From assembly GCA_944332815.1 (NCBI GenBank), contig CALVKQ010000001.1:49697-113696 (forward strand): a DNA stretch of 64,000 bases, written 5' to 3'. The notes below the pieces were generated by a model. The model did no database searches and had not been told where the DNA came from. It saw only the letters and a program-made list of their open reading frames with translations. Below are positions 38,378-64,000 of the stretch, piece after piece. A program made the translations under genes and the position numbers. The first letter of the stretch is position 1; each line of letters begins with the position of its first letter. The stretch comes from an uncultured Clostridia bacterium (GTDB taxonomy: Bacteria > Bacillota > Clostridia > Christensenellales > CAG-917).

Positions 38378-38493
38378 CCCCGTACACTCCGCGCACATGT
38401 TCGGAGCGCGGTTGAGGTGTGCAAACAACACTTAAAATTTTAAGAGGCCTGTCCCCCATTAAACCTTACTCCCCCACGCACACTAGTTTAGAG

Positions 38494-38638
38494 TTTTGAA
38501 CAGTTGGGGACGGGCTTATTTTGTTCAATTTTTGAACACTTGGGGACGTGTTTGATTTGTTCAATTTTTGAACACTTGGGGACGTGTTTGATTTGTTCAA
38601 TTTTTGAACAAAATAAGCCCGTCCCCAACTGTTCAAAA
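38494..38638. repeat. Perfect 28-bp inverted repeat enclosing tandem 37-bp repeats
   Basis: 38494-38521 is the exact reverse complement of 38611-38638. Between the arms, TTGTTCAATTTTTGAACACTTGGGGACGTGTTTGA occurs twice in tandem, followed by a third TTGTTCAATTTTTGAACA. Confidence 0.9.
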
Positions 38639-38644
38639 TGAGTA

Positions 38645-39202
38645 ACGTCCCCTGACATGGGAGTATTGTACCCCCTCCTTCCCTTCGGGCTTTCCTCCCC
38701 CACTCGGAATAGAGGACAATCCTCCTAAAATTTAAGTGTTGTTTGCCCCCTTCCTTCGGGTTTCCCCCAAAATCGTTCCCCCTTAAAAGGGAACCCACCA
38801 TTTCGGGGGAAACCTTCGGCGCTCGCGCATGACTGCTTCCGAGGACGGCACCTTTACGGAGCCGCCATGTTATGCCGCTTGCAATGCACCCGCTGCGCGA
38901 AGAGAGTGGCGCATTGCCGGCGCACTATTCGTCTAGCGCTCGGCACTCACACGGTCGCCGCCTGTTGCGGCTCCGCTCCGAATAAGTGCGCGTCGTACAC
39001 GGAGTTGGACGCGCCGCGACTTGCAAACGTGGGCGATGCTCGCCCACGGTGCAAGTTTGGCTGAGCGGCGCGTTATTACGTCTTTGAACAGGGGCAAGTA
39101 AAAATCAAGCACGCTCCGAATAAGTGCACGTCGTGTACGGGGTATTTTTTCCGTCTTCGAATAAGGGGAAGGAAGGGTATAATACTCCCATGTCAGGGAC
39201 GT
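38645..39202. repeat. Mosaic structured non-coding element, copy 1 (paralog of 59297-59790)
   Basis: It shares collinear blocks with the second locus, including a 39-nt identity (38693-38731 = 59383-59421) and a 64-nt block (39010-39073). It is closed by an imperfect 29-nt inverted repeat (38645-38673 / 39175-39202). Confidence 0.7.
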
Positions 39203-39257
39203 ACACCCCATTAAATTTTGCTTCATACCCGTTCTTTGCGTGTTTTAAACAAGCTGT

Positions 39258-52194: not shown

Positions 52195-52376
52195 ATACCC
52201 TCCTTTTTATCCCCCGCCCGAAGAGTCGTGGCTCTTCCGGTGGGGACACCGATTAGAACCCCAGTCTAAAATCAGAGATTTTCACCCGGGGACCCCGGGA
52301 TATTGGCTCCGATTTGAAATCGAAAATCAGCTCCGGGGAGCGATCTTGTCCTCGCCACGCCTTCGGGCGAAGGGAC

Positions 52377-58418: not shown

Positions 58419-58868
58419 TTATTTGAAGTACTTGTTTTCAATGTCGGCGATCATGTCCAGCCTGCGCTGGTGTCTGCCGCCTTCGTACTCGGCGACGAAC
58501 CATGCCTTGACGATGTCGCTCGCCTCTTCGGGAGTCACCACTCTGCCCCCGAGCGCGATGATGTTGGCGTTGTTATGACGCTTGGTCATCTCCGCCATGA
58601 AGGTGTTGGTGACCACCGCCGCACGAATGCCTTTGACCTTGTTGGCGGAAATGGAGATGCCTATCCCCGTCCCACACATGAGCACGCCGGCGTCACACTC
58701 GCCCGACGCCACAGCTTCCGCGACTTTCTGCCCGTAGACGGGATAATCCACCGACTCGTCGGTGTAAGTGCCGAGGTCAACGACCTCCGCGCCAAGCTCT
58801 TCCAGCGTGCGGATGACCGCAGGTTTGAGGACGATGCCGCCGTGATCGCAACCGATCGCAATTTTCAT
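58419..58868 (-). CDS. rpiB: Ribose-5-phosphate isomerase B
   Basis: MKIAIGCDHGG...GVLMCGTGIGISISANK motifs, 149 aa. AAGGGGTG SD. Confidence 0.92.
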   Translation of the reverse strand: MKIAIGCDHGGIVLKPAVIRTLEELGAEVVDLGTYTDESVDYPVYGQKVAEAVASGECDAGVLMCGTGIGISISANKVKGIRAAVVTNTFMAEMTKRHNNANIIALGGRVVTPEEASDIVKAWFVAEYEGGRHQRRLDMIADIENKYFK

Positions 58869-59113
58869 AAATTCACCCCTTGAGTTTGATAAGTTAATTA
58901 TACTCCCCTCCTCTCCCGAGCGCAAGAGTCAGTTCTCGCGTTTTGTCGAAAATGCCCGGGACGTATCCGAGCGCGCTCCGAATAAGTGAACGTGAGGAAA
59001 AAAGTTTAATGGGGGCGTCCCCTGACAAGGCATACTTCCGTCTTCGAATGAGTGTGGAGTGTGTTCAAGCACACACGCTCATGCTTCACGTTATACCGAA
59101 ACAGGAACGCGTT

Positions 59114-59237
59114 GGGACACAACGGGGACGGGGTAAAGCCGGGGTACCCATCTTTGATGGGGCTTGGGGGCGCAAATGTCCAATGAGGGACAAAACGTGT
59201 CCCTAATTGGACATTTTTGCCCCGTCCCCGTTGTCCC
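59114..59237. repeat. Long imperfect hairpin homologous to the 38494-38638 inverted repeat
   Basis: GGGACACAACGGGGACGGGG (59114-59133) pairs with CCCCGTCCCCGTTGTCCC (59220-59237). An inner hairpin is AAATGTCCAAT..GGGACA/TGTCCC..AATTGGACATTT. The GGGGACGGG core is shared with region 1. Confidence 0.75.
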
Positions 59238-59296
59238 GGATAAAGCAAGAACACTCTAACTAGTGCACGTGTGGAATAAAGTTTAATAGGGGCTTG

Positions 59297-59790
59297 CGTC
59301 CCCTGACATGGAAGTATAGCTCCCCCTCCTCCCCGGGGACCCCACAAAATGCATGCATTTTGTGGGGAGCCCCATTCGGGACTCCTCCCCCACTCGGAAT
59401 AGAGGACAATCCTCCTAAAATGCGGAACTCACTTTTTCATAAAGGCGCAGGCGGTGCGCCTTTATGAAAACACCTCTTGAAAAAGTTTGTTTATCGCACT
59501 TACATAATCAAGCGGCGAACAGTGCTCACTGAACGTCGCTCGTGGGGCGAGGAGGGCGACTCGACGCGCACCGAGCCCGTGTCTACTTAATTTTTCGTCT
59601 AGCTTGCGAGGTCGCAGATCCGCGCCGCGACTTGCAAGCGTGGGCGAACATTCGCCCACGGTGCAAGTTTGGCTGAGCGGCGCGTAATTCCGTCTTCGAA
59701 CGAGTATAAGTTGAAATTAAGTACGCTCCGGATAAGTGCACGTGGAATATTAGGGTTTTTCCCCGTCTTCGAATAAGGTTTGGAAAAATA
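59297..59790. repeat. Mosaic structured non-coding element, copy 2 (paralog of 38645-39170)
   Basis: It has the same order and orientation of conserved blocks as copy 1 (59298, 59383-59421, 59594, 59621-59685, 59725-59778). The interior differs and includes a 15-bp hairpin at 59434-59470. Confidence 0.7.
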
Positions 59791-59807
59791 ATTTCAACGC
59801 CCTTGCC

Positions 59808-60233
59808 TTAAACGGCGATATTTGGATGAAGAGCGCGAAAGCCCCACATATCCGGACGCGCGGTGTACTTTTTTTGCCCCAGCTGAAAATCCTCTGATTT
59901 TCACCCGGGGACCCCGATGTACATAAGCGGCCGGAGATGTGGGGCTGACAAAGCTATTCGCCAAATAGCGGCGTTTAACTTGTTAAAGCGCGATATTTTC
60001 GCGTCAGACAAGGAAGAACCGCGTTCCACGGACGCGCGGTGTACTCCTTGTACATAAGCGGTCGGGAACGCGGTTCTGACGCAGTATCACGCAAAATAAC
60101 ACACTTATCTAAACGGCGATATTTGGATGAAATGCGCGAAAGAACCCTGCCGAGAGGCGGAACGTACATTGACGTACGTGAGCATCTACGGCAGGGACTC
60201 TGACAAAGCAGTTCGCCAAATAGCGCCGTTTAA
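59808..60233. repeat. Three tandem long hairpin elements directly after the surface-protein stop codon
   Basis: Units at 59808-59978 and 60110-60233 share basal arms TTAAACGGCGATATTTGG / CCAAATAGCGsCGTTTAA. A middle unit spans about 59985-60090. The last arm overlaps the TAA stop at 60230-60232. Confidence 0.8.
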
Positions 60234-63200
60234 CGGATGCCGATGATGGGAGGCACCCTCCTATTACTCACAGCAGCAGGCGCATCATAGTGCTGCGGCG
60301 CGATGTCCGCGGCTGCCTCTGCCGCTACGACGGGAGCGACGGGAGCGGCGGTGGGAGGCTGAGGCATGATGGAGTCGATGGGCTCGACCTCCACGGGGAT
60401 GGGATCGGGCGCGCGATGCAGTTTGACGAGCACGGCGATGAGGATGGCGATCGCTATGACGAGAACCAACACCGCCGCCGCAAGCGCGATGATCCACCAA
60501 TCAAACGCGGGCGCGGAGCTGTTGACGAACACGAGGTTGCCTATGTAGTTGGTCTTATACTCAATGGTGTTGCCGGTCACGGTGTAGGACTCGGGATCCA
60601 TCTTGACGAGCCTGCCGTCCGCGTTGACGTAGTACACGCTGAAACCGCTTGCCACGCCGTCGGGGATGCGCGCCGTTATCGTGACTTCGTTTGCGAGAGT
60701 CGTGACCGCACCGTTGCGGTTGTTGAGCTGGATGCGCAGTATGCCGCTGACGCCGAGCTCCTCGTCCTCGCCTGCGAAGGACTGCACGTTGCTCTGGACG
60801 ATCTGCCAGTAGCTTTCGCTGCTGTCGACGGTGGTATCGGACAGCTTGTAATCCACCGCAACGGGATCGCCGAAGTCGACGGTGACATAAGTCGTGCCAT
60901 CGGCGACGTAAGCGACCTTGGTTATCTGGACGGTCATCTTGCCGGAGCTGTTGCCGACCGCGACATAGTTGGGGTTGTTCGCCTTGATCTCGTAGTCGTA
61001 GACGCCGGGTCCGGTGACCGAACTCACTATCTTGCCGTTGAAGCGGTAGACGACGGTGAAGTTGCCGACGGACGACCCATCGGACGTCGTGAACTCTATC
61101 TTGTAATTGCCGCTCACGCCTGCGGTCGCATCGTGCACGTCGGAACCGGGCACAACGGTGACCGTGACGGGTTTGGCGCTGACGCGCAGCGCGGTGACGC
61201 GGTTGTCGATGTAGTAGTTCTCCACATACTCGTCGCCTATCATGATCTCGAGTATGTACGCGCCTGCGTTCTTCATAGCCGCGAGGGACTCATCGCCGAA
61301 GACGTAAACGAGTTCCGCATTGGCGAAGAAGCCTTCCACCACTTCGCCGGTGAGCGCGTCGGTCGCCAGGAGGTCGGTGGCAGGAACCAGCCTGTACTCC
61401 GTATTCTCATACGGGAAGACGGAGGACACACCGGGAGCGAGGGTCACGATGACGCTCCTCTGCGCTATCTCGAAGTTGCCGCTTGCGGTGTAAGTGCCGA
61501 CGTAATTGTATTTGTACTTCGAATCCGCCGCGATCTTTCTGGTGACGGTGATGCTCCACGAATAGTAGCCGGACTCCGTGGGCGCCGGGATGACGCTGCC
61601 GGTGATGGCATCCGACCACTCGAAGGTGTACTCATCGAGCGCCGTAAGTCCTTTCAAGACATCCTCCACAGTGAGTGCAACGGGAGAACCGTCGGCGGAG
61701 AGAGTGTACGGACGAGAGCCGTCGACGACGGGCTTGAACACGCTCGTATCCAAAGTGGGAAGCACGATGACGAGCTCGGGAGCGACTTCCGCGCCCGTGG
61801 CATCCACCAGCACCACCTCGTAGTTGGTGAGCGCGTCGGAGTCCATGGTGAGGAGATACTTGCCGCCGTTCAGATTTGCGGTGAGCTCGTAGTCGGTGCC
61901 GACCAACGCCGCGCCTGTGCCGTTCAGCTTATAGGAGTAAGCCGAGCGCAGCGCATTCATGAGCGTGGCAACGTTATCCTTGTCCGCAACGGAGTCAGAG
62001 CTGTACACATTGAAGGTGGGCACGGGCAGAGAGCCGACATAGTATTCGGTTTCAAACGCGCCGTCCGTGCCGTTGCCGGTCGCGACGACCTGCAATTTAG
62101 CGCGCGCTATGACGACGGTGCGTCCGGACTGTGCGGTGACGGTGAAGTTGGTCGCCGTGACGGAGGCTTTCGCTCCGCTGTACGAGCCTGCATCCACCTT
62201 GATGTTCCCGTTCGCGTCGAGGAAAGCGACGCCCGTCGAAGTGACGAGAGTTGCGGTGCCGACTGTGCCGTCGATGCGGACATACGCGCCGTCCGCCGCC
62301 TGCACGAAGGAGCCGTCGTCATTCCTGTTATAGAGTTTTTCCTGCGCAGGCGTGACAGCCGTCGCGTGGGCGAACGCCGCATTCCAGTCGGTGGCGAGGA
62401 TGTAGGCGTACCCTGCCTCGTCCACGATGACGGGTTTTCCGCCGACGGAATAGCTCACGCCGTAATCGAGCGTGCTGCCGTAAGTGCCGGTGATATCGCC
62501 TGCGTCAGCGGAAGTCAGCGCGACGCTCATATCCGCCCTGGTGACGGTGGCTGCACTCGAAACGGTGTAAATGCCGCCGGTGTTGAAGACGTAATTGCTG
62601 TTGCCGGTCGCGGAGTTGATGGCGAAGATGACATCCTGTCTGCCGACGCCGACGCCGCCGAGGGTGACGGTGAAGTCGGCTATGGTGAAGTCATCCGCAA
62701 GCTCGGGCGCGCCGGGCACGACGAGGACGAAGTCGCCGTCGCTGCCGTAGGTGAGCGAAGCGGACAGGTTCACGGTGTCGTCGAACTTCTTGACGAAAGC
62801 GGAACTGTCGAGGATATCCACTCTGAACGCGATCTGTATGGGATCGATCTTACCGGTCGCGGGGAAGTACGCCAATCCGGGGTACTCCTGCGCCACGGTG
62901 AACCCATCGGGAGCCGCGGTGAACGCGCTCTTTTCGGCGAGGTAGACCGTCCTGCCGTTCAGGGTGAACTCGGCGAGGAATTTTGCTCTGACGTCGTCGG
63001 GGATATCGACGGAGGCGTCGTTGCGGCTGTACGCGACGTAATCCGCGACGCCTTCCGCATCTATCTTATAGTTGACGGTGCCGTTCTGCCTGTACAGTTC
63101 GAAGCCGTAGACGGTGCCGTCCTTGGTCGCCGCCGCATCCGCGGAGTCGTAGCCTGCCGCGAGCACTCTGACGCCGTAGCTCTGCTTGACGAACTCATCC

Positions 63201-64000
63201 GCGGTGACGAACCCGGAGAGGGACGCGGTGACTCTGTTCTCGATGACGCCCGAGTACGCTGTGCCGTCATAAGTCTTGCCGGGAAGGGTGAACTCCACTT
63301 GGAGGGTCGCCGGGGTGATATTCGCCCTGAGGCTGCTGCTGCTCGCTCTGAACGTGATGGCGTAGCTGCTTGCGACGTCCTGATTATGCGCAGTCTGTTC
63401 CGCATTGCCCTCCACGGTCTTCGCGACGAGCTTCACGGAGCCGCTCTCGATGCTGACGGAGATATTATTCGCGACGTCGGCGCTGTTGAAGCGCGCGCTG
63501 TACGCAAACTCGAGGCTGTCGATATCCTTTGCGGTGCCGATCTGCACGAAATCGTTTTCGTCATACGCGCCGTTGAAGTCGAGTTTTACGTCGGTGGTGC
63601 CGTCGTAGACCTTGCTTTCGGGCTTGATGCCGGTGATGTCGATGATGATCTCCTTGGGATTGAGCACAGCCTCTTTTGCGAGGAAGAGGTTGGACACGGC
63701 GTACTCGCCTGCCGCCTCGTTTATGGGCGTGTAGGTGACGTCGAAGTCGTAGTTATCCCAATCGAAGTTGCTGCTGACGGCGATCTCGAAGTTGACGAGG
63801 ACGTCGTGATAGTAAACTCCGTTCTCGAAGTTTTCCGTCTGGACGTAGATGAAAGGCTCGTACTTTTCGCCGGTATCTCTGGCGAAGAGGTACACGGGGT
63901 TGCGGATCTCCGCGCTTTCGCCGTCTGCGACGTTATCGATGACGGGCGCGGTGACGGTGGAAGGACCGGCCTGACCGCTGTACATCACGCTGTCGCCCTC
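60230..64000 (-). CDS. Very large surface protein with MBG (YGX-type)-like repeats and a C-terminal TM anchor (5' end outside the window)
   Basis: Recurrent K.YDGT motifs (KVYDGTTDV, KTYDGTAYSG). C-terminal hydrophobic helix WWIIALAAAVLVLVIAIAILIAVLV followed by a Pro/Ala-rich tail. No signal peptide at the apparent start, so the gene continues upstream. Confidence 0.8.
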   Translation of the reverse strand, partial: EGDSVMYSGQAGPSTVTAPVIDNVADGESAEIRNPVYLFARDTGEKYEPFIYVQTENFENGVYYHDVLVNFEIAVSSNFDWDNYDFDVTYTPINEAAGEYAVSNLFLAKEAVLNPKEIIIDITGIKPESKVYDGTTDVKLDFNGAYDENDFVQIGTAKDIDSLEFAYSARFNSADVANNISVSIESGSVKLVAKTVEGNAEQTAHNQDVASSYAITFRASSSSLRANITPATLQVEFTLPGKTYDGTAYSGVIENRVTASLSGFVTADEFVKQSYGVRVLAAGYDSADAAATKDGTVYGFELYRQNGTVNYKIDAEGVADYVAYSRNDASVDIPDDVRAKFLAEFTLNGRTVYLAEKSAFTAAPDGFTVAQEYPGLAYFPATGKIDPIQIAFRVDILDSSAFVKKFDDTVNLSASLTYGSDGDFVLVVPGAPELADDFTIADFTVTLGGVGVGRQDVIFAINSATGNSNYVFNTGGIYTVSSAATVTRADMSVALTSADAGDITGTYGSTLDYGVSYSVGGKPVIVDEAGYAYILATDWNAAFAHATAVTPAQEKLYNRNDDGSFVQAADGAYVRIDGTVGTATLVTSTGVAFLDANGNIKVDAGSYSGAKASVTATNFTVTAQSGRTVVIARAKLQVVATGNGTDGAFETEYYVGSLPVPTFNVYSSDSVADKDNVATLMNALRSAYSYKLNGTGAALVGTDYELTANLNGGKYLLTMDSDALTNYEVVLVDATGAEVAPELVIVLPTLDTSVFKPVVDGSRPYTLSADGSPVALTVEDVLKGLTALDEYTFEWSDAITGSVIPAPTESGYYSWSITVTRKIAADSKYKYNYVGTYTASGNFEIAQRSVIVTLAPGVSSVFPYENTEYRLVPATDLLATDALTGEVVEGFFANAELVYVFGDESLAAMKNAGAYILEIMIGDEYVENYYIDNRVTALRVSAKPVTVTVVPGSDVHDATAGVSGNYKIEFTTSDGSSVGNFTVVYRFNGKIVSSVTGPGVYDYEIKANNPNYVAVGNSSGKMTVQITKVAYVADGTTYVTVDFGDPVAVDYKLSDTTVDSSESYWQIVQSNVQSFAGEDEELGVSGILRIQLNNRNGAVTTLANEVTITARIPDGVASGFSVYYVNADGRLVKMDPESYTVTGNTIEYKTNYIGNLVFVNSSAPAFDWWIIALAAAVLVLVIAIAILIAVLVKLHRAPDPIPVEVEPIDSIMPQPPTAAPVAPVVAAEAAADIAPQHYDAPAAVSNRRVPPIIGIR

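What the first reader, a model, noticed from the sequence alone, without database searches (positions are those of the whole stretch)
59808..60233. Three tandem long hairpins after the adhesin stop codon, with conserved cores and compensatory outer stems
Units 1 (59808-59978) and 3 (60110-60233) share the basal arms TTAAACGGCGATATTTGG / CCAAATAGCGsCGTTTAA and flanks (atgaaRWgcgcgaaag ... ctgacaaagcWRttcg). Their inner stems differ but are self-complementary: GCCCCACATATCCGG/CCGGAGATGTGGGGC versus CCCTGCCG/CGGCAGGG. Units 1 and 2 share a core, ggacgcgcggtgtac ... gtacataagcggYcgg. In unit 2 the enclosing stem is a different, perfect 12-bp pair (GAACCGCGTTCC 60016-60027 / GGAACGCGGTTC 60065-60076). 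Unit 1 carries a 50-nt insertion in its loop. The last arm overlaps the TAA stop of the surface-protein gene (60230-60232). This looks like REP/BIME-type 3'-UTR elements (mRNA stabiliser or terminator) or a small structured RNA family. The stem swapping is evidence that the fold itself is maintained.
Basis: seen in the sequence. Interest (0 to 1): 0.55.

Follow-up and report, generated by a model that had tools for sequence, protein, structure and literature searches.

The report
Stop-codon-anchored hairpin repeats, gut Clostridia
The three hairpins are real and belong to an apparently uncatalogued family of ~125-base hairpin repeats in gut Clostridia that nearly always begins exactly at a gene's stop codon, which makes it a new, testable case of how repeated DNA shapes the ends of bacterial messages.

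Summary
Window 59808-60233 holds three head-to-tail ~125-nt imperfect hairpins downstream (minus strand) of a giant surface-protein gene, and the TAA stop (60230-60232) forms the first pairs of the first hairpin. They are not a local oddity. An nhmmer profile and a covariance model found about 115 copies (87 distinct) in human-gut metagenome contigs and Clostridia MAGs. None matches Rfam, the plasmid or phage databases, or IMG/VR.

Family rules:
- The unit is always sense to the upstream gene.
- The first unit starts at that gene's stop codon (TAA or TGA) in about 19 different gene families, and the 3' end covaries with the stop (TAAAC..GTTTA, TGAAC..GTTCA).
- 33 of 41 base pairs show compensatory changes, while asymmetric internal loops keep their sequence.
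- In low-GC lineages a canonical terminator follows, so the unit lies inside the 3'UTR.
- Arrays after this same gene range from 1 to at least 4 units among strains about 98% identical in flanking genes.

Best reading: a modular, recombining hairpin-repeat family transcribed as the start of 3'UTRs. It resembles REP/BIME, ERIC and BOX in behaviour but meets the defining features of none. Function (mRNA 3'-end protection or termination insulation) is inferred, not shown.

The parts
60230..60232 (-). TAA stop codon of the giant surface-protein ORF. It is also nucleotides 1-3 of the basal helix of the first hairpin unit.
   Evidence: ORF 60230..63988(-). Hmm position 2 of the unit profile maps to 60231. 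The stop lies at distance 0 from the unit start.
60109..60232 (-). It is alpha-type and complete: TAAACGGCGCTATTTGGCGAACTGCTTTGTCAG - inner stem AGTCCCTGCCG - apical GTAC..GTAC - CTTTCGCGCATTTCATCCAAATATCGCCGTTTAG.
   Evidence: nhmmer 86.7 bits, CM 109.8 bits, fold.
59983..60108 (-). Unit 2, the second unit, beta-type (GCGTGATACTGCGTCAG ... CTTCCTTGTCTGACGCG). Its perfect inner stem is 60015-60027/60065-60077. Its 5' arm is degenerate (ATAAGTGTGTTATTTT, C-to-T changes that leave G.U pairs only in the sense RNA).
   Evidence: (104.7 bits). Not listed among the CM hits at E<=0.01 (found by nhmmer only).
59979..59982 (-). Junction CAAG (sense) between the beta and alpha units. The same beta-to-alpha junction, GCGCTTTAA-CAAG(T/C)-TAAACG, recurs in other strains.
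59808..59978 (-). Unit 1, the third unit, alpha-type with complete arms and inner stem CCCCACATCTCC. The same unit allele follows rpsR in locus L098 and is the first unit in strains L174 and L175.
   Evidence: 113.6 bits; 121.1 bits.
59869..59918 (.). Apical loop of unit 1, expanded by a nested copy of a second repeat family (CCCC..GAAAATC..GATTTTC..GGGG palindrome, core 59877-59910).
   Evidence: Inverted repeat I9. Solo copy at 52258-52298. The same insert sits in a beta-type unit in L098 and in strains.
60233..63988 (-). 3' part of the upstream host gene. It is a giant (3314-3322 aa in strains) protein with a C-terminal hydrophobic anchor and a YDG domain. Its mRNA would carry the hairpins as the start of its 3'UTR.

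Best explanation
The three hairpins are one array of a dispersed, modular family of ~125-nt imperfect hairpin repeats found in gut Clostridia (Christensenella-labelled and related MAGs). Read in the sense of the upstream gene, a unit has four layers:
- A basal helix that contains the gene's stop codon.
- A block of sequence-conserved asymmetric internal loops, in two forms (alpha: GCGAATAAC../..TTCTTCATC; beta: GCGTGATAC../..GTCTGACGC).
- A hypervariable but self-complementary inner stem.
- A conserved apical stem, YGTAC-loop-GTACR.

Shown: the family exists. It is always sense to the upstream gene. It begins at the stop codon. Its helices covary. In some lineages it lies between the stop codon and the terminator. 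Arrays and modules reassort quickly.

Inferred: the unit is co-transcribed and acts as RNA. The terminating ribosome must open the base of the first hairpin. Once the ribosome is released, the hairpin refolds over the stop codon and forms a very stable cap on the ORF. That cap would block 3'-to-5' exonucleases and/or insulate the downstream region from ribosomes that do not dissociate (a 'ribosome termination structure'). Units after the first are less constrained relics or spares. At the DNA level the family spreads and turns over by recombination between the conserved arms, or by an unidentified enzyme.
For: - Family and spread: there are 81 nhmmer hits and about 115 non-overlapping CM hits (87 distinct) in 0.73 Mb of gut contigs.
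- Stop-codon anchoring: 28 of 40 distinct 5' flanks have an ORF of at least 80 codons ending within 3 nt of the unit start. On the convergent side the figure is 5 of 60, at least one of them spurious. About 19 gene families are involved, including gap, pfkA, rpsR, hisIE, recR, galE and glgD (function names assigned by eye from the translations).
- Covariation with the stop: the stop is TAA or TGA, and the 3' end changes with it (TAAAC..GTTTAG, TGAAC..GTTCAG, CTGAGGG..CCCTCAG).
- Fold: 90.8% of cells are paired, 33 of 41 pairs have double changes, and 0 of 500 shuffles reach this.
- Constraint on the first unit: its outer 8 pairs are 96% paired, against 68% in later units.
- Orientation follows the gene, not the chromosome. 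L057 has units on both strands within 5 kb, each sense to its own gene.
- Strand of the RNA: G.U exceeds A.C by 104 to 45 in the helices of the sense strand.
- 3'UTR position: a canonical terminator lies 10-180 nt after the unit in low-GC lineages and in L098.
- The units are non-coding.
- Asymmetric loops are conserved across lineages of 41-60% GC. This argues against simple palindrome homogenisation.
- Precedent: stable structures immediately after stop codons control termination and re-initiation (PMC7518266).
Against: - No transcript data exist, so co-transcription and any effect on RNA are inferred.
- Per-unit minimum free energy is lower on the antisense strand in 58 of 69 units. Thermodynamics therefore does not favour the sense RNA.
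- The G.U excess could instead reflect C-to-T bias on the non-template strand.
- Copies are related, so shuffle statistics overstate independence.
- Arrays range from 1 to at least 4 units between strains about 98% identical in flanking genes. This shows weak constraint on dose and looks like selfish or slippage-driven DNA.
- Some of that variation may be short-read assembly error in repeats.
- A hairpin a few nucleotides after the stop would protect mRNA equally well, so the exact anchoring is not explained by the proposed function.
Confidence: 0.5

Rival explanations
1. The family is purely selfish mobile or recombining DNA (MITE- or REPIN-like) with no RNA function. The hairpin is the single-stranded DNA or terminal-inverted-repeat substrate of an unidentified transposase. 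Position at stop codons reflects target choice or the only tolerated landing site. Compensatory changes arise from template switching within quasi-palindromes.
For: - The same unit allele occurs at unrelated loci: after rpsR in L098, in window unit 1, and as first unit in L174 and L175.
- One genome has an identical inner hairpin inside different outer arms at two loci (L057).
- Arrays are hypervariable within a species.
- There are truncated remnants and nested insertions of a second hairpin family.
- Later units are decayed.
Against: - There is no target-site duplication. The flanking bases are complementary, not direct repeats.
- No transposase was found among the 9 small ORFs scanned in the window. 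This was a partial test.
- The family is absent from the phage, plasmid and IMG/VR collections.
- Orientation tracks the gene rather than the replication direction (L057).
- The asymmetric loops and a fixed C.U mismatch are conserved, whereas homogenisation would erase them.
- The basal helix is kept specifically in first units.
Confidence: 0.27
2. The hairpins are transcription terminators (intrinsic without a U tract, or factor-dependent) that end the surface-protein transcript.
For: - They lie at the ends of transcription units, often between convergent genes.
- In the window lineage and in L057 no canonical terminator is found within 220 nt downstream. In L057 the next feature after gap's units is a sigma-A-like promoter.
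- From my own recollection, not checked here: in Firmicutes terminator stems may overlap stop codons (Johnson et al. 2020, Nature).
Against: - There is no T run after any unit, and the terminator scan found only chance internal sites.
- In many lineages a good GC-stem-plus-T-run terminator follows the unit, for example after rpsR in L098 and L129 and in the pfkA loci. There the unit does not terminate.
Confidence: 0.08
3. It is a protein- or ligand-binding structured RNA, or the precursor of a 3'UTR-derived small RNA. The conserved asymmetric loops and the invariant GTAC..GTAC apex would be the recognition surface, and the variable stems only a scaffold.
For: - Loop sequences are more conserved than helices across lineages of 41-60% GC.
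- The apical core recurs inside unrelated outer stems in L124 and L148.
Against: - There is no match to any Rfam family at E<=1.
- No K-turn or other known motif could be fitted by eye.
- Dose varies freely between strains.
- The host genes have no common function.
Confidence: 0.1
4. The units are integron attC-like recombination sites (folded single-strand substrates of a tyrosine recombinase) with empty cassettes.
For: - Size (~125 nt, like Vibrio VCRs) and imperfect palindromy are similar.
- They sit right after ORFs, with the stop codon in the first arm.
- The window reads GTTAAAC (GTTRRRY) across the last codon and stop.
Against: - GTT before the stop is not general: L098 has GAC-TAAAC and L057 has AAC-TAAAC.
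- The 3' ends GTTTAGT and GTTCAGC do not fit GTTRRRY.
- The host genes are housekeeping genes scattered over the chromosome, not cassette arrays.
- Units are directly tandem with no ORFs between them.
Confidence: 0.02

Closest known systems
REP / BIME of E. coli and other Proteobacteria
   Same: Dispersed extragenic palindromes concentrated just after coding regions. They are mosaic clusters built from a few unit types (here alpha and beta alternate in this species), and copy number at a locus varies between strains. REPs are proposed to stabilise mRNA. From my recollection, not checked here: REPs within ~15 nt of a stop codon affect translation (Liang, Rudd and Deutscher 2015). General REP properties are from PMC3733652.
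   Different: - REPs are 20-40 nt and tagged by terminal GTAG or CGTC (PMC3733652). These units are ~125 nt with no terminal tag.
- BIME units alternate in orientation. These are all head-to-tail and all sense to the gene.
- No RAYT was seen among the 9 small window ORFs scanned.
- REPs lie near stop codons but do not as a rule include them in the stem.
ERIC/IRU (Enterobacteria, ~127 bp) and Neisseria Correia/NEMIS elements
   Same: Imperfect palindromes of 100-160 bp that fold into one long hairpin. They are co-transcribed in intergenic regions and are present or absent between strains. Their effects on mRNA depend on orientation or RNase III. (From my own knowledge of De Gregorio et al.; the papers were not retrievable.)
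   Different: - The sequences are unrelated and the hosts belong to a different phylum.
- Correia elements duplicate a TA target and occur in both orientations.
- Neither family is described as anchored on the stop codon with strict sense orientation.
Pneumococcal BOX elements (Firmicutes)
   Same: Modular repeats (boxA-boxB(n)-boxC) with a variable number of modules. They form stable RNA structures, and no mobilising enzyme is known. (My own knowledge.)
   Different: Different sequence and module logic. BOX elements are not tied to stop codons.
Ribosome termination structure (RTS), PMC7518266
   Same: A stable mRNA structure immediately downstream of stop codons that insulates translation and controls re-initiation. 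The position matches.
   Different: RTS is a statistical and functional class, not a homologous repeat family. RTS structures are small and gene-specific.
MIRU-type intergenic VNTRs of mycobacteria
   Same: Tandem units at gene ends that overlap stop codons and vary in number between strains. (My own knowledge.)
   Different: MIRUs are direct repeats with small ORFs and are not hairpins. The units here are non-coding.

Membership tests
REP/BIME | Unit is a 20-40 nt imperfect palindrome | tested here: not met
   Units are 123-127 nt, or 170 nt with the nested insert.
REP/BIME | Terminal GTAG or CGTC tag (PMC3733652) | tested here: not met
   The ends read TAAAC/TGAAC ... GTTTAG/GTTCAG. CGTC occurs only internally (CTGCGTCAG) and is TGTC in many units.
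REP/BIME | Many extragenic copies, mainly after coding regions, in mosaic clusters | tested here: met
   About 115 copies in 0.73 Mb of contigs, in arrays of 1 to at least 4 units, downstream of ORFs. The per-genome count is unknown.
REP/BIME | Associated RAYT (IS200-like Y1 transposase) | tested here: inconclusive
   Nine small window ORFs scanned with Pfam gave no Y1_Tnp hit. The rest of the genome is not available.
MITE | Terminal inverted repeats, small size, no coding capacity | tested here: met
   Terminal arms are 17-18 nt, and no frame is consistently open. However, the whole unit is palindromic, not only the ends.
MITE | Target-site duplication (direct repeat) at both ends | tested here: not met
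   TAA..TTA and TGA..TCA are inverted, not direct. The base before the stop pairs with the base after the 3' end (17 of 19 against 12.7 expected).
MITE | Parent insertion sequence with the same ends | not tested
   No complete genome was at hand. There was no match in the plasmid, phage or viral collections.
Intrinsic terminator | Short GC-rich stem followed by a U tract | tested here: not met
   There are no terminator-like sites at unit ends. Separate canonical terminators follow units in several lineages.
Integron attC | RYYYAAC ... GTTRRRY core sites; one site per cassette ORF; intI nearby | tested here: not met
   The core sites do not fit in most copies. Units are tandem with no ORFs between them, and the hosts are housekeeping genes. 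The presence of intI was not tested.
Any Rfam 15 family | Covariance-model match | tested here: not met
   No hit at E<=1 in window 58500-61000, none at gathering score in the whole window, and none over units in six other loci.
Ribosome termination structure (functional class) | Stable mRNA structure starting immediately at or after the stop codon | tested here: met
   The helix starts at the stop codon, give or take 1-2 nt. Mean unit energy is about -57 kcal/mol. The effect on translation is not testable with these tools.

The most novel reading that the evidence does not exclude
This is a previously undescribed kind of element: a stop-codon-anchored hairpin module. Either it is a mobile element that targets, or itself supplies, the stop codon of housekeeping genes in one fixed orientation. 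Or it is a translation-termination-coupled RNA device whose basal helix is opened by the terminating ribosome, and whose conserved asymmetric loops are read by a dedicated protein (nuclease, recombinase or RNA chaperone). In either case the exact register with the stop codon would be mechanistically required and not a by-product.
Probability: 0.28. Interest if true: 0.8.

Novelty: new variant of a known kind. Interest (0 to 1): 0.6.

Why it matters
If the reading is right, gut Clostridia carry their own counterpart of REP/BIME or ERIC elements. This counterpart has an unusually strict rule: one orientation, with the helix starting on the stop codon.

That rule gives a clean experimental handle. 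Moving the stop codon, breaking and restoring the basal helix, or changing the unit number would test how 3'-UTR hairpins couple translation termination, mRNA decay and read-through in Firmicutes, where this is poorly known.

The arrays are also hypervariable between strains that are about 98% identical elsewhere. They could therefore serve as strain-typing markers in metagenomes, and they are a likely source of assembly breaks.

The covariance model built here could seed a new RNA/repeat family entry.

Tried and rejected
Nearly all 108 loci were chance hits. BLAST of the region against them still rescued seven real relatives.
- RpiB with the TTG start was not on record. The ATG start worked.
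- Rfam gave nothing. The plasmid, phage and IMG/VR collections gave nothing.
- Coding potential was rejected, because no frame is consistently open.
- Strand choice by folding energy was inconclusive. It ran opposite to the G.U/A.C count.
- An apparent convergent ORF ending in the 3' end of an L057 unit was judged spurious on reading the sequence: a promoter and a signal-peptide gene lie on the other strand.
- M29 aminopeptidase genes carrying a unit in two genomes looked like orthologous retention. They are only 33% identical over 72 aa, so I dropped that argument.
- K-turn, C/D-box, attC, TnpB/IscB guide RNA, DGR and SECIS readings were considered by eye and did not fit.
- Literature searches found no description of this family.
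- The ERIC primary paper could not be retrieved.

Full report
**1. The observation**

- Units 1 and 3 share the basal arms (59808-59825 / 59961-59978 and 60110-60126 / 60216-60232) and the adjoining flanks.
- Units 1 and 2 share a 17-nt core (59853-59869 = 60029-60045).
- Unit 2 has a perfect 13-bp inner stem (60015-60027 / 60065-60077).
- Unit 1 has a 20-nt inner stem with one mismatch and an expanded loop.

The arm pattern occurs four times in the window against 0.08 expected. The 461-nt stretch folds far better than shuffles on both strands (z = -11.6 and -11.0). The ORF 60230..63988 on the minus strand ends in TAA at 60230-60232, inside the last arm. The hairpins therefore lie downstream of that gene, and the strand that would be transcribed with it is the minus strand. 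Aligned in that sense, the three units are homologous along their whole length.

**2. It is a family**

Rfam gives nothing here, either at E<=1 or at gathering score over the whole window. My first collection scan used too short a pattern and returned mostly chance hits. BLAST of the region against those loci still picked out true relatives:
- Ca. Limadaptatus stercoripullorum (L057, five units in 8 kb)
- an uncultured Clostridia MAG (L098)
- Christensenella sp. UBA6880 (L004)
- Firmicutes bacterium CAG:238 (L069)
- a Clostridiales MAG (L076)
- two more MAGs labelled 'uncultured Bacteroidaceae' (L047, L064)

A longer core pattern found 64 contigs, largely labelled human-gut metagenome. A nine-seed nhmmer profile gave 81 hits. 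A covariance model (R1) gave 150 hits on both strands, which reduce to about 115 non-overlapping places and 87 distinct sequences. There is no match in the plasmid or phage databases or in IMG/VR, and none to Rfam in six other loci. Literature searches found no description.

**3. Anatomy**

In the sense of the upstream gene a typical unit reads:

TAAACGCCGCTATTTGG / CGAATAGCTTTGTCAG / variable stem / GACCGCTTATGTAC-loop-GTACACCGCGCGTCC / variable stem' / CTTTCGCGCTCTTCAT / CCAAATATCGCCGTTTAG.

RNAalifold on 28 diverse units predicts one long hairpin of 41 pairs in four helices. Of these pairs, 33 show changes on both sides that keep the pair. The pair count gives 90.8% of cells paired, against 70.1% in shuffles and 35-50% when the partner is slid. 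No shuffle out of 500 reaches the observed values.

Helices vary while the internal loops do not. The two strands of the loop region have different, conserved sequences, and they come in two forms: alpha (GCGAATAAC.. opposite ..TTCTTCATC) and beta (GCGTGATAC.. opposite ..GTCTGACGC). The apex keeps TAC..GTA invariant. No reading frame is consistently open.

**4.

In every array the unit is on the same strand as the gene upstream, and the first unit begins on that gene's stop codon.
- With a crude ORF caller the distance from stop to unit start is 0 for most arrays.
- Measured directly, 28 of 40 distinct 5' flanks have an ORF of at least 80 codons ending within 3 nt of the unit start. On the convergent side the figure is 5 of 60, and at least one of those is spurious on inspection.
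- The genes are unrelated. Read by eye from the translations (only the window surface protein was scanned with Pfam), they include gap, pfkA, rpsR, hisIE, recR, galE, glgD, two M29 aminopeptidases, a UPF0210 protein in three genomes, membrane proteins and the window's surface protein.
- The stop is TAA in some lineages and TGA in others, and the 3' end changes with it: TAAAC..GTTTAG, TGAAC..GTTCAG, CTGAGGG..CCCTCAG. The stop codon is therefore part of the basal helix.
- Pairing extends about one further base into the last codon (17 of 19 against 12.7 expected) and no further.
- Exceptions exist. One unit has the native stop 6 nt upstream, in frame with the unit's own TAA. One has it 20 nt upstream with a partial arm duplication. 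One lies 125 nt from its gene.
- The outer eight pairs are 96% paired in first units but only 68% in later units of arrays, while the rest of the hairpin differs less (94% against 88%).

**5. Is it RNA, and which strand?**

Several facts point to the sense transcript.
- Orientation follows the gene and not the chromosome. In L057, units on both strands lie within 5 kb, each sense to its own gene. This argues against a replication-strand rule of the IS200/IS605 type.
- In low-GC lineages and in L098, a good GC-stem-plus-T-run terminator follows the unit by 10-180 nt. There the unit lies between stop codon and terminator, inside the 3'UTR.
- In the consensus helices G.U outnumbers A.C by 104 to 45 on the sense strand.
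- Window unit 2 keeps its basal pairing only through G.U pairs.

Against this, per-unit folding energy is lower on the antisense strand in 58 of 69 units, because the pyrimidine-rich loops become purine-rich. The G.U excess could also come from C-to-T bias on the non-template strand. No expression data are available. I take co-transcription as likely and RNA-level function as plausible but unproven.

**6. Dynamics**

Looking up the window's RpiB protein returned ten contigs of the same species. Their flanking genes are 97.5-100% identical to the window, apart from one strain (L178) whose surface-protein 3' end is 95.4% identical. The array after the stop codon of the same giant gene differs in almost every one of them:
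- L176 has one unit.
- L174 and L178 have two units.
- The window, L173 and L175 have three units, with different unit alleles.
- L180 has four units.
- L177 has a 5'-arm deletion.
- L179 has a deletion that removes the stop codon, so that the called ORF runs into the hairpin.

In this species alpha and beta units alternate, with a constant beta-to-alpha junction. The unit allele of window unit 1 also follows rpsR in L098 and heads the arrays of L174 and L175. In L057 an identical inner hairpin sits in alpha arms after gap and in beta arms after an aminopeptidase gene.

The extra ~45 nt in unit 1's loop is a copy of a second, REP-like family (a CCCC..GGGG palindrome). That family occurs solo at 52258-52298. 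It is nested in a beta unit in L098 and in a 3' arm in L175. It also forms a tandem array of 0 to 7 copies after rpiB in the strains.

The deeper covariation across lineages is nonetheless real. One caveat: these are short-read metagenome assemblies, and repeats of this kind invite mis-joins. Recurrent identical junctions in independent assemblies argue that much of the variation is genuine.

**7. Mechanism**

What is shown is the anatomy, the anchoring, the orientation, the covariation, the 3'UTR position in several lineages and the turnover.

What I infer is this. The unit is transcribed with the gene. The ribosome reaching the stop codon must melt the base of the first hairpin. After release the hairpin closes over the stop codon and leaves a very stable cap on the ORF (about -57 kcal/mol per unit). 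Such a cap would stop 3'-to-5' exonucleases at the end of a complete message. It would also prevent non-released ribosomes from moving on, as described for ribosome termination structures (PMC7518266). From memory, REPs within about 15 nt of stop codons are known to affect translation in E. coli.

This does not explain why the register with the stop codon is exact. Either insertion or recombination is targeted there, or the basal helix that includes the stop is itself selected. The contrast between first and later units favours selection.

The main rival is selfish DNA without RNA function. It is supported by the turnover and by shared alleles. It is weakened by the absence of target duplications, by gene-linked orientation, by the conserved asymmetry and by the absence from mobile-element collections. 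Terminator, riboregulator and attC readings are weaker still (see the rival and membership entries).

**8. Comparison and novelty**

In behaviour this is closest to REP/BIME, ERIC and Correia elements and to pneumococcal BOX: dispersed, hairpin-forming, modular, strain-variable repeats at gene ends. It fails the defining tests for each known family.
- REP membership: wrong size, no GTAG or CGTC tag (PMC3733652), and head-to-tail arrangement.
- MITE membership: no target duplication.
- Intrinsic terminators: no U tract.
- attC: the core sites do not fit and the units are not in cassette context.
- Rfam: no family matches.

The obligate embedding of the stop codon, the strict sense orientation and the nested, reassorting module structure are not features I know from those families. 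I therefore rate it a new variant of a known kind. There is a minority chance (about 0.28) that the stop-codon register reflects a new mechanism.

**9. Verdict**

Noticed in passing
window 52258-52298 and 59869-59918; L177:6528-6834; L175:5128-5160: A second, REP-like repeat family: a 33-35-nt CCCC..GAAA(A)TC..GATTT(T)C..GGGG palindrome with a ~45-nt period when tandem. It occurs solo at 52258-52298 and nested in unit 1's loop. It sits in a 3' arm of a unit in L175. It also forms a tandem array after rpiB that ranges from 0 copies (window) to 7 copies (L177) between strains.
   Followed up: partly
window 58926-59807 and 38640-39220: The rest of the 1.3-kb spacer between the surface-protein gene and rpiB is a mosaic of other short repeats, such as CCGTCTTCGAATAAG, CTCCGAATAAGTGCACGT and GGGGCGTCCCCTGACA. 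These are shared with another long intergenic region. 59621-59778 matches 39010-39166 at 82% over 158 nt.
   Followed up: no
window 38490-38640: A long palindrome (TTGAACAGTTGGGGACGGGCTTATTTTGTTCAA .. its complement) encloses two tandem ~36-nt copies of GTTCAATTTTTGAACACTTGGGGACGTGTTTGATTT.
   Followed up: no
window 59434-59470: A perfect 16-bp inverted repeat, TTTTCATAAAGGCGCA/TGCGCCTTTATGAAAA, lies about 340 nt beyond the array and is conserved in the strain loci. It may be the real (bidirectional) terminator of the surface-protein transcript. The simple terminator scan did not call it.
   Followed up: partly
L173-L182 (strain loci), first ~700 nt after the surface-protein stop: In this species alpha- and beta-type units alternate within arrays (a-b-a, b-a, b-a-b-a). 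The beta-to-alpha junction GCGCTTTAA-CAAG(T/C)-TAAACG is constant, while alpha-to-beta junctions vary. A 5'-arm remnant (TAAACGSCGCTATTTGGCGAAT) often ends the array.
   Followed up: partly
L179:3261-3398: In one strain a deletion removes the first unit's 5' arm together with the TAA (the sequence reads ..CGT TAT TGT CAG CCC..). The gene caller extends the ORF about 110 nt into the hairpin. This is either a natural C-terminal extension variant or an assembly artefact.
   Followed up: no
L124:4571-4695; L148:7646-7770: The apical core CGCTTATGTAC-loop-GTACACCGCGCG also occurs inside quite different, GC-rich outer stems in two other metagenome contigs. This suggests the apex is the oldest or most constrained module.
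   Followed up: no
window 59288-59401: There is a weak, sub-threshold resemblance to the Rfam NLPC-P60 RNA motif (21.9 bits against a gathering score of 53.7, E = 0.94). It is probably chance.
   Followed up: no
window, all called ORFs: Of about 50 long ORFs in the window, most end in TGA. Only the surface-protein gene carries the hairpin family at its stop, so the density is about one array per 64 kb here, against three arrays in 8 kb in L057.
   Followed up: no
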